A stretch of DNA of 40,444 nucleotides, taken from the sequence record OR204652.1; one strand, given 5' to 3'. Origin of the DNA: Escherichia phage pO111. The notes below the pieces were generated by a model, which ran no database searches, was not told the DNA's origin, and saw nothing but the letters and a program-made list of their open reading frames with translations. This document shows, piece by piece, positions 1-40,444 of the stretch. The stretch's first letter is position 1; every line of letters starts with the position of its first letter. The translations under genes and the position numbers were made by a program.

Positions 1-173
1 AGGGACAAGGAGAGACACTCAAGGTAACACCCAAAGGGACAACCCAAAGGTAACACTCAAAGACTCAACCCAACCCTTAGGGAACCCTCAAGGTCAACCG
101 AAGGTTGACTTTAGGTGATTGGCTGGGCTTTAGGTACCCCTATGGGGGAACTTTGGGCGCTTACACTGTGAGA
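1..173. repeat. Direct terminal repeat (genome right end in T7 orientation)
   Basis: 1..173 is identical to 40272..40444; the reverse complement resembles the T7 terminal repeat (TCTCACAGTGTA...). Confidence 0.9.
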
Positions 174-38762: not shown

Positions 38763-38918
38763 TCACTCAGCAGACTCCAAGGCTATTGCCTTGTTGTTTT
38801 CGTACAGTTCCTTAAGGTGTTCCATTGCGAGCGACCAATCAAAGCCACAGCGCACCATGTCGCTATAGAACAGTACAGTTTGAGCGGTCAGACCGTATTG
38901 CGTGGTGTTGTTAGCCAT
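38763..38918 (-). CDS. 0.4: gp0.4 (51 aa; host cell-division inhibitor in T7)
   Basis: Manual translation [51 protein letters not shown]; start overlaps the ocr stop as TAATG. Confidence 0.7.
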   Translation of the reverse strand: MANNTTQYGLTAQTVLFYSDMVRCGFDWSLAMEHLKELYENNKAIALESAE

Positions 38919-39280
38919 TACTCTTCGCCCTCTTCGTAGTCTTCCTCTTCTTCGACTTCCTCAAGATACTCGTTCAGTAAGTCTTCTGCATCTTCCCAGA
39001 GGTCGATTGTGAGTTGCTCATAGATACGTGCTTGCAGGATACGGATTACGTCCTTGGTGTCCGGCATAAGACCAGAGTCCTCAAACTCAAGGTCAATGCC
39101 CTCGCTTGCCATTACACTGAAAATGTCGCTGTAGTAGTGCGGAACAGCATTATCAGCCGCCATATGCACTGCATCGTGCAGGTCATCAGCGTCACGGATG
39201 TCATCATAACGGATGTTTTCTTTCAGCATTTCGTAAGCGTGATCTAAAACGTTGTTATAAGTCATGTTAGACATAGCCAT
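38918..39280 (-). CDS. ocr: Ocr anti-restriction protein (DNA mimic)
   Basis: 120 aa, highly acidic, [30 protein letters not shown] near-identical to recalled T7 gp0.3. Confidence 0.95.
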
Positions 39281-39320
39281 TGTGTGTTACCTCATAGTGT
39301 TGTTAGTGGATATCATAAAG

Positions 39321-39372
39321 GGCACCTTGCGATACCCTTGAGTTATCCGCTACGTGTGTACACTCAAGAGCC
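39321..39372 (-). promoter_or_regulatory. RNase III processing hairpin R0.3 upstream of ocr
   Basis: mRNA GGCUCUUGAGUGUACACACGUAGCGGAUAACUCAAGGGUAUCGCAAGGUGCCC, matches the recalled T7 R0.3 region. Confidence 0.6.
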
Positions 39373-39555
39373 GTTTACCAGATTGTTAAAGAACTTTAAG
39401 CTACAGTTTCATCGAGCCGAGGCTGTTTCAGTGTTAGCCGTCACTTGCGTTATATATCCGACAAGCTCTTTATTATCGTGGTCGCTTGTGCTTTCGGCAT
39501 CTATCCACTATGTCGCGTTTTTACACCTACGACACTCGGTGTCTTTCTGTGGTAC

Positions 39556-39584
39556 ATCTTACAGCTTTTAAAGGAGGCTGTCAA
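39556..39584 (-). promoter_or_regulatory. Extra (fourth) sigma70-type early promoter
   Basis: On the minus strand: TTGACA, 17-nt spacer, TAAGAT then GTACCACAG, a hybrid of the A2 and A3 promoters. Confidence 0.6.
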
Positions 39585-39702
39585 CCTGTTATTCTTTTAT
39601 GCGATGAGTGACCGAATTCGACTCATGGCTAGTGCCTTATCCTTGGCGGGTCACGGGCAGGTTTCTCGGTTCCTATCCCTACACCCTTACTGCTTGTGGT
39701 AC

Positions 39703-39731
39703 ATCGTACCGTGTTTACTACATGTTGTCAA
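39703..39731 (-). promoter_or_regulatory. Early sigma70 promoter A3
   Basis: AAACGGTTGACAACATGTAGTAAACACGGTACGATGTACCACA, near-identical to recalled T7 A3. Confidence 0.85.
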
Positions 39732-39808
39732 CCGTTTTGTTTCACCTTGTGTGCCGTGGTGCGCTTAAGTCACCTAGAAGACACCGTGCTACCGTGTTGA
39801 CGCTGTGC

Positions 39809-39838
39809 ATCTTACTGCATGTTACTGCGTGTTGTCAA
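39809..39838 (-). promoter_or_regulatory. Early sigma70 promoter A2
   Basis: TTGACAACACGCAGTAACATGCAGTAAGATGCA, near-identical to recalled T7 A2. Confidence 0.85.
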
Positions 39839-39937
39839 TGCCTGTTTTTCGTATGACTTATCAGGCTGTCTACTTATCCGGTTGACCCCGGTATCTCAGG
39901 GAGTGGCTTTTAGGCCGTTGTCCCGTTGACGAGATGA

Positions 39938-39966
39938 ATAGTAACCGGTAGGACTCTTTAAGTCAA
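39938..39966 (-). promoter_or_regulatory. Early sigma70 promoter A1
   Basis: AAAAAAGAGTATTGACTTAAAGAGTCCTACCGGTTACTAT, A/T-rich upstream element plus TTGACT; resembles T7 A1. Confidence 0.8.
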
Positions 39967-40024
39967 TACTCTTTTTTTTAAATTCTTTAATTTCTCTCTT
40001 TAAGTCCTCTTTAAGTAGTCTCTC

Positions 40025-40047
40025 TCTCTCTTTAGTGAGTCGTATTA
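40025..40047 (-). promoter_or_regulatory. T7-type phage RNAP promoter near the left end (phiOL position)
   Basis: Reverse complement TAATACGACTCACTAAAGAGAGA. Confidence 0.75.
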
Positions 40048-40054
40048 AAGACAA

Positions 40055-40270
40055 TGATTAAAGATTATCTCTTTATAGGTAACAACAAGGCATCTTTAGG
40101 AATAGGCTTTAGGCTGGTCTTTAGGTCTGGTCTTTAAGGATACTTTAAGATAGGCGTTGACTTGGTGAGTCTTTAGGTGTAGTCTTTAGGTTGTAGACAC
40201 GGTAGGAATTACTTTAGGAGGTGACTTTAGGAGGTGACTTTAGGAGGATACTTTAGGAGGCTGGAACAGA
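40055..40270. repeat. Array of CTTTAGG heptamer repeats, including a 13-bp tandem repeat (actttaggaggtg) at 40211..40262
   Basis: At least 9 copies of ctttagg (reverse complement CCTAAAG), 4 of them in tandem 13-bp units. Confidence 0.7.
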
Positions 40271-40271
40271 T

Positions 40272-40444
40272 AGGGACAAGGAGAGACACTCAAGGTAACA
40301 CCCAAAGGGACAACCCAAAGGTAACACTCAAAGACTCAACCCAACCCTTAGGGAACCCTCAAGGTCAACCGAAGGTTGACTTTAGGTGATTGGCTGGGCT
40401 TTAGGTACCCCTATGGGGGAACTTTGGGCGCTTACACTGTGAGA
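40272..40444. repeat. Direct terminal repeat (genome left end in T7 orientation)
   Basis: Identical to 1..173. Confidence 0.9.

What the first reader, a model, noticed from the sequence alone, without database searches (positions are those of the whole stretch)
39380..39600. Extra fourth sigma70 promoter in a roughly 250-bp segment between A3 and ocr
Besides the A1, A2 and A3 homologs, a fourth promoter with perfect TTGACA, a 17-nt spacer and TAAGAT followed by GTACCACAG lies about 145 bp downstream of A3. The A3-to-ocr distance is about 416 nt here versus about 175 nt in T7 as recalled. The sequence looks like an A2/A3 hybrid, which suggests a local duplication or recombination that adds a fourth early promoter.
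Basis: partly seen in the sequence, partly recalled or inferred. Interest (0 to 1): 0.5.

Follow-up and report, generated by a model that had tools for sequence, protein, structure and literature searches.

The report
Fourth early promoter on mobile cassette
This T7-like phage does carry an extra, fourth host-type early promoter, but it is not a local duplication: it is half of a 147-bp cassette shared almost unchanged by about thirty related phages and already annotated in phage BA14, and the other half encodes a small folded RNA that I could not find described anywhere.

Summary
On the minus strand (the window is a complete T7-like genome in reverse), TTGACA-17 nt-TAAGAT-GTACCACAG lies at 39584..39548. 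That is 147 bp downstream of the A3 homolog, in DNA that T7 and T3 lack. A3-to-ocr is 415 nt, against 175 nt in T7.

The extra ~240 bp is not a local A2/A3 duplication. It is two independent blocks:
- A 147-bp cassette (39690..39548): a ~100-nt segment plus the promoter, here called P4. It occurs at 92-100% identity in 31 cultured phages of four genera, whose flanks are only 70-82% identical to the window. BA14's GenBank record already annotates it as a host RNAP promoter.
- A ~100-bp leader block (39547..39447), which in other phages follows A3 directly.

The cassette is bounded by the direct repeat GATGTACCACA. One relative has a contracted array with an A2/P4 chimera, so these arrays change by recombination between promoter cores.

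One result was unexpected. The segment upstream of P4 folds into three hairpins with a loop-loop contact, supported by compensatory changes in canonical and diverged copies, and it has no Rfam match.

P4 is ordinary and effectively known. The RNA element is the new lead, and its function is unknown.

The parts
39938..39966 (-). A1 homolog (TTGACT-17-TACTAT)
   Evidence: aligned with T7 and T3 A1.
39809..39838 (-). A2 homolog (TTGACA-18-TAAGAT)
   Evidence: aligned with T7 A2.
39703..39731 (-). A3 homolog (TTGACA-17-TACGAT). The predicted start is 39695, which is phage coordinate 750, the same as in T7.
   Evidence: The start site is placed by homology to T7 A3 +1; this is an inference.
39695..39705 (-). 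Direct repeat copy 1, GATGTACCACA (end of the A3 -10 element to +1); upstream boundary of the cassette.
   Evidence: junctions seen.
39585..39690 (-). Segment 1, a structured RNA element read through from A1-A3. H1 is at 39686..39648, H2 at 39647..39634 and H3 at 39629..39601. The H1 loop ACCGAG pairs with the H3 loop UUCGGU.
   Evidence: Folding. Covariation. Loop-loop complementarity. Covariance model finds one copy per carrier genome and none in T7 or T3.
39556..39584 (-). Fourth promoter, P4: -35 TTGACA 39584..39579, 17-nt spacer, -10 TAAGAT 39561..39556, predicted start 39548.
   Evidence: The homolog in BA14 is annotated as a host RNAP promoter. The -35 element and the spacer length are invariant in the 19 distinct copies.
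39548..39558 (-). Direct repeat copy 2, GATGTACCACA (end of the P4 -10 element to +1); downstream boundary of the cassette.
39447..39547 (-). Segment 2, an independent ~100-bp leader block with a 5' hairpin GACAC-CGA-GUGUC at 39543..39531. It forms the 5' end of P4 transcripts.
   Evidence: It follows A3 directly in the three-promoter phages 64795_ec1, phiYe-F10 and 2050H2 (95-97% identity), and is absent from T7, T3, C5 and BA14. Hairpin.
39303..39445 (-). Leader shared with T7 and T3: hairpin 39445..39416, boxA-like GTTCTTTAACAATCTGG 39394..39378, and the homolog of the RNase III site R0.3 at about 39353..39303.
   Evidence: Alignments. R0.3 is placed by homology to the T3 stem-loop annotated at 822-875. 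The name boxA comes from my own knowledge of T7.
38918..39280 (-). ocr (gene 0.3) homolog, 120 aa, the first gene downstream of the promoters.
   Evidence: ORF. Homologs are annotated as ocr-like or gp0.3 in T7, C5 and phiYe-F10.

Best explanation
P4 (39584..39556, start about 39548) is a working sigma70-dependent early promoter. It adds a fourth entry point for E. coli RNA polymerase upstream of ocr and the other early genes. Like A1-A3, it should contribute to early gene expression and to the transcription-driven pulling of the genome into the cell.

It did not arise in place. It is the 3' half of a 147-bp cassette whose 5' half (segment 1) encodes a three-hairpin RNA. That RNA sits at the very 5' end of A3 transcripts.

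The cassette starts at the +1 region of one promoter and ends at the +1 region of the next, and GATGTACCACA is repeated at both ends. It therefore moves between co-infecting T7-relatives, and can be lost again, by recombination between the conserved promoter cores.

What is shown: the sequence features, the distribution, the island of high identity, the repeat boundaries, and the RNA covariation.

What is inferred: promoter activity in vivo, the exact start site, the direction of individual gain and loss events, and the role of the RNA. My guess for the RNA is a cis-acting 5' leader fold that protects or modifies early transcripts, or binds a host factor.
For: Promoter quality:
- Perfect -35 element, optimal 17-nt spacer, the same -10 hexamer as A2, and the same -10-to-+1 sequence as A3.
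- An A-rich tract lies upstream, as in A1-A3.
- The exact pattern is expected 0.03 times per genome.

Conservation:
- In 19 distinct canonical copies of the cassette, TTGACA and the T, A and final T of the -10 element never change. The -10 variants are TAAGAT, TAAGCT and TAATAT.
- Diverged versions of the RNA element in Carena, Minorna, phiKT and PGT2 are followed by promoters with unrelated spacers that still have TTGACA, a 17-nt spacer and a TAxxxT- or GATAAT-type -10 element. This argues for selection on promoter function itself.
- PDP351P2 has only A1 plus an A2-upstream/P4-core chimera as strong promoters.

Prior annotation: BA14 regulatory feature 834-870, 'host RNAP promoter', is the homolog of P4.

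Cassette and mobility:
- Segment 1 occurs in 44 records, representing 31 phages, at 92-100% identity.
- The cassette is 94-99% identical to BA14, P694, ST31 and SH3 copies, while the flanks are 70-82% identical.
- It is also present in a Przondovirus.
- Its junctions sit at GATGTACCACA.
- There is no source in E. coli genomes or in GTDB species genomes.

RNA element:
- H1: three pairs with double changes, 99% of cells paired, 0/500 shuffles reach the covariation score.
- Variant group: 25 pairs including 5 loop-loop pairs, six with double changes, 0/500 shuffles.
- The loop-loop pairing is kept in three sequence forms; with shuffled H3 loops all three forms pair in 0.5% of trials.
- U-G pairs make the fold specific to the sense strand.
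Against: - There are no transcript data for this phage or for any carrier of the cassette. Promoter activity rests on sequence and comparison only.
- Within the canonical cassette everything is conserved, including the P4 spacer. Conservation there reflects recent spread as much as selection. With about eight substitutions, zero hits in nine critical promoter positions is not significant on its own.
- The P4 region can also be drawn as a hairpin in read-through RNA, with one compensatory change in the spacer. Part of its conservation could therefore serve the RNA.
- P1338 has the variant RNA but no clear downstream promoter.
- RNA folding energy alone is unremarkable (z about -1.7 to -1.9).
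- The compensatory changes are few lineage events, and I noticed the loop-loop contact post hoc.
Confidence: 0.75

Rival explanations
1. Local tandem duplication or A2/A3 hybrid: the extra promoter arose by duplication or unequal crossing-over within this genome's own A2-A3 region.
For: P4 shares GGTTGACA and GATGTACCACA with A3, and AACAGG plus GTAAGATG with A2. The spacing from A3 (147 bp) is similar to the spacing between the other promoters.
Against: The spacers are unrelated, and the ~100 nt upstream of P4 matches nothing else in the genome (best E = 1.3). The same cassette occurs in other genera next to quite different 'A3' promoters. Promoters in T3 also carry TAAGATGTACCACA, so those shared pieces are family-wide.
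Confidence: 0.03
2. P4 looks like a promoter but is not used. It is conserved only because the cassette is young, or because the sequence forms a hairpin (ACAGC-N11-GCTGT) in read-through RNA.
For: The whole cassette, including neutral-looking spacer positions, is nearly invariant. One compensatory change lies in the spacer hairpin (pair 121-133). No expression data exist.
Against: A perfect -35 element, a 17-nt spacer and a TAxxxT -10 element together are very unlikely by chance. Non-homologous promoters occupy the same place after the variant RNA. HZP2 has a change towards consensus, TAATAT. PDP351P2 keeps the P4 core as one of only two strong promoters. The depositors of the BA14 genome record annotated it as a promoter.
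Confidence: 0.1
3. The four-promoter array is ancestral, and T7 and T3 lost the cassette by deletion between the GATGTACCACA repeats. On this view the window retained the cassette rather than gained it.
For: A deletion between the two repeats would give exactly the three-promoter, long-leader layout of 64795_ec1. PDP351P2 shows that such contractions happen. From my own knowledge, T7 readily deletes between short direct repeats.
Against: Vertical retention since the split of the genera should have let the cassette diverge as its flanks did (70-82%), yet it is 94-99% identical. Only about 31 phages carry it, against 301 records that match the A3-to-ocr query. Both processes probably occur, so this concerns direction only, not what P4 is.
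Confidence: 0.25

Closest known systems
Fourth host RNAP promoter of coliphage BA14 (GenBank EU734171, regulatory feature 834-870)
   Same: It is homologous: 91% identity over P4 and 99% over the upstream segment. It has the same position after the same RNA element, the same TTGACA and the same 17-nt spacer.
   Different: BA14 has the -10 element TAAGCT, lacks segment 2, and its first gene is in the position and of the size that relatives annotate as SAM hydrolase rather than ocr. BA14 is a Berlinvirus, with flanks only about 73-80% identical to the window.
T7 major early promoters A1, A2 and A3
   Same: Same orientation and location at the left end, upstream of gene 0.3. Near-consensus hexamers and an A-rich upstream tract. 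The -10 hexamer is the same as A2's, and the sequence from the -10 element to +1 is the same as A3's.
   Different: There is no counterpart in T7 or T3. The spacer and upstream DNA are unrelated. Activity has not been tested, whereas A1-A3 are classic, biochemically characterised promoters (my own knowledge).
Carena/nasanit-type variant cassette, and the leader RNA of Minorna, phiKT, PGT2 and P1338
   Same: The same H1 and H2 hairpins and the same H1-loop/H3-loop contact. In most of them a sigma70 promoter follows directly.
   Different: H3 is a different hairpin (GUUUACC-GGAGUAUGCRGACAC-GGUAAAC). The downstream promoters are not homologous to P4. Hosts include the genera Ermolevavirus and Drulisvirus, outside the Studiervirinae.
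Cis-acting structured leader RNAs of phage early operons (for example HK022 put). This is a functional analogy only, from my own knowledge.
   Same: A compact folded RNA placed directly downstream of strong early promoters that host RNA polymerase uses.
   Different: No sequence or structural similarity was tested or is claimed. There is no Rfam match. There is no evidence that it acts on RNA polymerase. Transcripts from P4 lack the element.

Membership tests
T7-group early sigma70 promoters (A1/A2/A3 type) | Rightward orientation within about the first 1 kb of the genome, between phiOL and the first early gene | tested here: met
   P4 lies at phage coordinates 861-889. phiOL is at about 398-420, the ocr ATG at 1165, and all are on the same strand.
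T7-group early sigma70 promoters (A1/A2/A3 type) | Near-consensus -35 element, 17-18 nt spacer, and a -10 element of the form TAxxxT | tested here: met
   TTGACA / 17 nt / TAAGAT, 10 of 12 matches to consensus. The pattern is expected 0.03 times per genome.
T7-group early sigma70 promoters (A1/A2/A3 type) | Orthology to one of T7's A1, A2 or A3 | tested here: not met
   T7 and T3 have no counterpart. The spacer and upstream sequence are unrelated to A2 and A3.
T7-group early sigma70 promoters (A1/A2/A3 type) | Initiation by E. coli RNA polymerase holoenzyme in vitro or early in infection | not testable with these tools
   This needs run-off transcription or 5'-end mapping. No data were found in the literature searches.
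BA14-type fourth host RNAP promoter cassette | Sequence homology to the BA14 734-870 region, in the same place downstream of the third promoter | tested here: met
   99% identity over segment 1 and 91% over P4. The BA14 feature 834-870 starts at the TTGACA of the P4 homolog.
Local tandem duplication | The extra DNA is significantly similar to neighbouring DNA of the same genome | tested here: not met
   blastn of segment 1 against the rest of the genome gives a best E-value of 1.3.
Any described RNA family (Rfam 15) or tRNA/tmRNA | A covariance-model or ARAGORN match | tested here: not met
   Only two chance-level Rfam matches up to E = 10 in window 39200-40444, both outside the cassette and far below their gathering scores. 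No match up to E = 1 in the Minorna, Carena or P1338 loci. ARAGORN found none.
Intrinsic terminator | A G+C-rich hairpin followed by a U run on the transcribed strand | tested here: not met
   H3 is followed by CGCAUAAAAGAAUAACAGG. The scan reports no minus-strand terminator within 39548-39690.
RNase III processing site of the T7 type (R0.3-like) | An irregular hairpin of about two helical turns (about 20 bp) with an internal loop | tested here: not met
   H1 has 10 pairs, H2 has 3 and H3 has 10. The real R0.3 homolog lies downstream, at about 39353..39303. The length criterion is from my own knowledge.
CsrB/RsmZ-type CsrA-binding RNA | Many GGA motifs displayed in hairpin loops | tested here: inconclusive
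   The H2 loop always contains GGA (AAGGAU, ACGGAU, AGGGAA), and so does the variant H3 loop. But GGA is not enriched in the leader (8 against 9.9 expected), and there are only one or two such loops. Binding cannot be tested here.

The most novel reading that the evidence does not exclude
The ~90 nt immediately upstream of P4 (39686..39601) is a previously undescribed structured RNA that moves horizontally between phages. It has three hairpins, with the H1 and H3 loops pairing and a GGA-bearing H2 loop.

It is found in the early leaders of at least 37 coliphage-type Autographiviridae of at least seven genera, in two sequence forms.

On this reading it has a role of its own in the first minutes of infection, such as binding a host factor, or protecting or modifying early transcripts. 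P4 travels with it because transcription has to be re-supplied downstream of it.
Probability: 0.35. Interest if true: 0.6.

Novelty: new member of a known kind. Interest (0 to 1): 0.4.

Why it matters
For the promoter itself, the consequence is modest. The early control region of T7-relatives turns out to be a modular array of two to four promoters. The array is reshuffled by recombination at the promoter cores, so T7's 'A1, A2, A3' is one state among several. This should be kept in mind when annotating these phages, or when engineering them for therapy or expression.

An extra strong promoter directly upstream of ocr could speed up genome entry and anti-restriction expression. That is testable with existing T7 assays.

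The more interesting lead is the conserved folded RNA that accompanies the promoter. It lies in some of the most strongly transcribed DNA of the infection, it crosses genus and subfamily boundaries nearly unchanged, and it has no assigned function.

Tried and rejected
- **Rfam and tRNA/tmRNA searches.** No credible match for the region or for the variant loci.
- **Host origin of the cassette.** No match in 5,426 E. coli genomes and no match of a 21-mer in GTDB species genomes.
- **Local duplication.** Rejected.
- **Intrinsic terminator or RNase III site in segment 1.** The features are absent.
- **Small ORF.**
  - A 9-codon ATG/GTG ORF overlaps H3 (MSRIRSLIA). Its three substitutions comprise two non-synonymous and one synonymous change, and the variant form has a different 4-codon ORF. 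I therefore see no coding signal, reading the sequences.
  - Antisense ORFs of 82-107 aa run against the direction of all the genes and were dismissed.
- **CsrA-sponge idea.** GGA is not enriched.
- **H2 loop pairing with CCUCC in the P4 spacer, or with the ocr Shine-Dalgarno sequence.** Considered, but not conserved in the variant forms; dropped.
- **More diverse copies.**
  - IMG/VR scans returned mainly the genomes already in hand, plus three contigs with the canonical cassette.
  - The metagenome scan gave five further canonical cassette loci, two of which were chance matches (L028, L034).
- **Literature searches for a described fourth early promoter, or for BA14's promoters.** Nothing found. 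Two searches failed on syntax.
- **Segment 2.** Too conserved in the six copies held to test for structure.

Full report
**Context.** The window is a complete linear T7-like genome in reverse orientation. It has an exact 173-bp terminal direct repeat. Its right half (window 20000-40444, which holds the early and DNA-metabolism genes) is about 91% identical to T7 and at most about 92% identical to any record in the phage collection. Phage coordinate p equals 40444 minus the window coordinate plus 1.

On the minus strand the left end reads as follows:
- phiOL (40047..40025), then the A1 homolog (39966..39938), the A2 homolog (39838..39809) and the A3 homolog (39731..39703).
- Then a fourth promoter-like site, P4 (39584..39556).
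- Then the leader that T7 also has: a hairpin, a boxA-like sequence and the RNase III site R0.3.
- Then ocr (39280..38918).

**Checking the observation.**
- P4 is TTGACA, a 17-nt spacer and TAAGAT, followed by GTACCACAG.
- It lies 147 bp downstream of A3.
- The A3 start, placed by homology to T7's +1 at 750, is 39695, which is 415 nt from the ocr ATG. T7 has 175 nt.
- The exact pattern TTGACA-N16-18-TAAGAT occurs only at A2 and P4 in 40.4 kb, against 0.03 expected.
- Alignments with T7 and T3 show that the extra DNA is absent from both.
- The extra DNA is 39690..39447, so the stated interval covers only its downstream half.

**What the extra DNA is.** Comparison with 13 early regions shows two independent blocks.
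- *Block 1* is a 147-bp cassette: segment 1 (39690..39585) plus P4 up to its +1 (39584..39548).
- *Block 2*, segment 2 (39547..39447), is a leader piece. In the three-promoter phages 64795_ec1, phiYe-F10 and 2050H2 it follows A3 directly at 95-97% identity. It is missing from T7, T3, C5, Yep_9 and BA14.

All four combinations therefore exist:

| Promoters | Leader | Examples |
|---|---|---|
| three | short | T7, T3 |
| three | long | 64795_ec1, phiYe-F10, 2050H2 |
| four | short | C5, CICC 80001, BA14, P694, ST31, SH3 |
| four | long | the window, 04922B, CQ615 |

Only 04922B and CQ615 cover at least 80% of the A3-to-ocr interval among 50,697 records.

**Not a local duplication.** Segment 1 has no significant similarity to the rest of the genome (best E = 1.3). 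The P4 spacer is unrelated to the A2 and A3 spacers. What P4 shares with them is the consensus-type -35 element, an A-rich tract upstream, A2's -10 hexamer, and A3's GATGTACCACA from the -10 element to +1. T3's A2 has the same TAAGATGTACCACA, so these pieces are common to the promoter family.

**A mobile cassette that is already annotated.**
- Segment 1 occurs in 44 phage records, representing 31 distinct phages, at 92-100% identity.
- Carriers fall in Teseptimavirus, Berlinvirus, Kayfunavirus and one Przondovirus.
- It has no counterpart in E. coli genomes or GTDB species genomes.
- Against BA14, P694, ST31 and SH3 the cassette is 94-99% (segment 1) and 91-97% (P4) identical, while the flanking early region and gene 0.3 are 65-82% identical. 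It is an island, as expected for recent exchange between phages.
- The BA14 GenBank record lists four 'host RNAP promoter' features, and the fourth (834-870) begins at the TTGACA of the P4 homolog. The promoter as a kind is therefore on record.
- I found no paper discussing it.

**How the cassette moves.** It begins just after the +1 of the upstream promoter and ends at the +1 of P4, and GATGTACCACA is repeated at both ends (39705..39695 and 39558..39548). Deleting between the repeats would give exactly the layout of 64795_ec1.

PDP351P2 shows a different contraction. A2's upstream sequence is fused at AACAGG/TTGACA to the P4 core, and A2's core, A3 and segment 1 are gone. That leaves A1 and the chimera as the only strong promoters.

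These arrays therefore expand and shrink by recombination between conserved promoter cores. Because of the repeat, which of the two promoters (A3 or P4) is called 'extra' is a matter of convention.

**Is P4 a real promoter?** This is inferred, not shown.

Arguments for:
- The quality of the elements.
- TTGACA, the 17-nt spacing and the three critical -10 positions are invariant in 19 distinct canonical copies. One copy has changed towards consensus (TAATAT in HZP2) and the Berlinvirus and Kayfunavirus copies have TAAGCT. One further copy, in the Przondovirus K35PH164C3, has a 16-nt spacer.
- The strongest comparative argument is that diverged versions of the upstream RNA in Carena, Minorna, phiKT and PGT2 are followed by non-homologous promoters that again have TTGACA and a 17-nt spacer.

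Caveats:
- The whole cassette is so conserved that conservation within it says little.
- The P4 region can also be drawn as a hairpin in read-through RNA.
- P1338 lacks a downstream promoter.

By general knowledge of T7, restated in PMC11680406, host RNA polymerase transcribes the pre-early genes and this helps genome entry. A fourth promoter would add to both.

**The unexpected part: a folded RNA upstream of P4.**

*Canonical copies.* RNAalifold on 17 distinct cassette copies predicts three hairpins in segment 1, plus a fourth over the P4 region. No pair is broken, and three pairs have compensatory double changes.

*Diverged copies.* Copies exist outside the canonical set: Carena and nasanit (Berlinvirus), P1338, Minorna (Drulisvirus), and phiKT and PGT2 (Ermolevavirus).

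*Formal counts.*

| Alignment | Pairs | Cells paired | Pairs with double changes | Shuffles reaching the covariation score | Slid controls |
|---|---|---|---|---|---|
| 20 sequences, H1 only | 10 | 99% | 3 (GC/UA, GC/AU, GC/CG) | 0/500 | none with double changes |
| 5 variant sequences, H1 + H2 + variant H3 + 5 loop-loop pairs | 25 | 99.2% | 6 | 0/500 | at most 1 |

*Loop-loop contact.* The contact uses the same H1-loop positions in three sequence forms:
- ACCGAG with UUCGGU (canonical);
- CUGCG with UGCAG (variant);
- CCGCG with UGCGG (Minorna), where the single H1-loop change is matched by the single H3-loop change.

With shuffled H3 loops, all three forms pair in 0.5% of trials.

*Other properties.*
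- U-G pairs make the fold specific to the sense strand.
- The H2 loop always carries GGA.
- A covariance model finds exactly one copy per carrier genome, and none in T7, T3 or the three-promoter phages.
- There is no Rfam match.
- Folding energy alone is unremarkable (z about -1.9).
- In the window the element starts 10 nt after the A3 start, so it forms the 5' end of A3 transcripts. P4 transcripts lack it and instead begin with the small hairpin GACAC-CGA-GUGUC.

**Function of the RNA.** This is unknown.
- I tested and could not support a terminator, an RNase III site, a peptide or a CsrA-sponge reading.
- My best guess, at low confidence, is a cis-acting 5' fold that protects the long untranslated leader or binds a host factor.
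- A put-like action on RNA polymerase is an analogy only.

**Verdict.** P4 is a new member of a kind already annotated in BA14 and widespread among T7-relatives. The accompanying structured RNA, and the modular recombining promoter array, are what is worth following up.

Noticed in passing
window 39614-39619 (minus strand; loop of hairpin H3): The only GAATTC (EcoRI) site in the whole 40,444-bp genome lies in the H3 loop of the cassette. About 10 sites would be expected from base composition (my calculation). One relative, CHX131, has GAATTT there. This fits genome-wide site avoidance with the cassette as a recent import, or a constrained loop.
   Followed up: partly
window 1-173 and 40272-40444: An exact 173-bp direct terminal repeat, so the window is a complete linear genome in reverse orientation. 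T7's terminal repeat is 160 bp (recalled).
   Followed up: yes
L048 (Teseptimavirus PDP351P2) 690-760: This phage has only two strong early promoters: A1, and a chimera of A2's upstream sequence fused to the P4 core. A2's core, A3 and the RNA element are deleted. It is a natural example of contraction of the promoter array.
   Followed up: yes
L040 (Minorna) 838-900; also phiKT L041 and PGT2 L042: Upstream of the shared RNA element these phages have further short hairpins with GGA in the loop, for example GCGC-AACGGAAG-GCGC. They lie inside a non-coding early region of about 1 kb. I did not analyse them.
   Followed up: no
window ~39875, ~39641 and ~39346 (minus strand): GGATAA occurs three times in the A1-to-ocr leader: in the A1-A2 interval, in the H2 loop and in R0.3. 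Shuffles give 0.2 expected, and 1 of 300 reaches three.
   Followed up: partly
L017 (HZP2) and L039 (Klebsiella phage K35PH164C3): Natural variants of P4. HZP2 has the -10 element TAATAT, closer to consensus. K35PH164C3, a Przondovirus, has a 16-nt spacer. Berlinvirus and Kayfunavirus copies have TAAGCT.
   Followed up: partly
window 39531-39543 (plus strand): The scan calls a terminator-like site on the plus strand (GACACTCGGTGTC followed by TTTCTGTGG). It is the antisense reading of the hairpin at +6 to +18 of the predicted P4 transcript. No leftward transcription is expected here.
   Followed up: partly
window 40060-40300: A dense array of short repeats of the CTTTAGG / ACTTTAGGAGG type lies between the terminal repeat and phiOL. 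It resembles the repeat arrays at the left end of other T7-like genomes, such as 04922B. I did not analyse it.
   Followed up: no
window 38918-39280 (minus strand): The ocr homolog is 120 aa and ends in a long acidic tail (…[14 protein letters not shown]). T7's ocr CDS (925-1278) encodes 117 aa. I did not compare them further.
   Followed up: no
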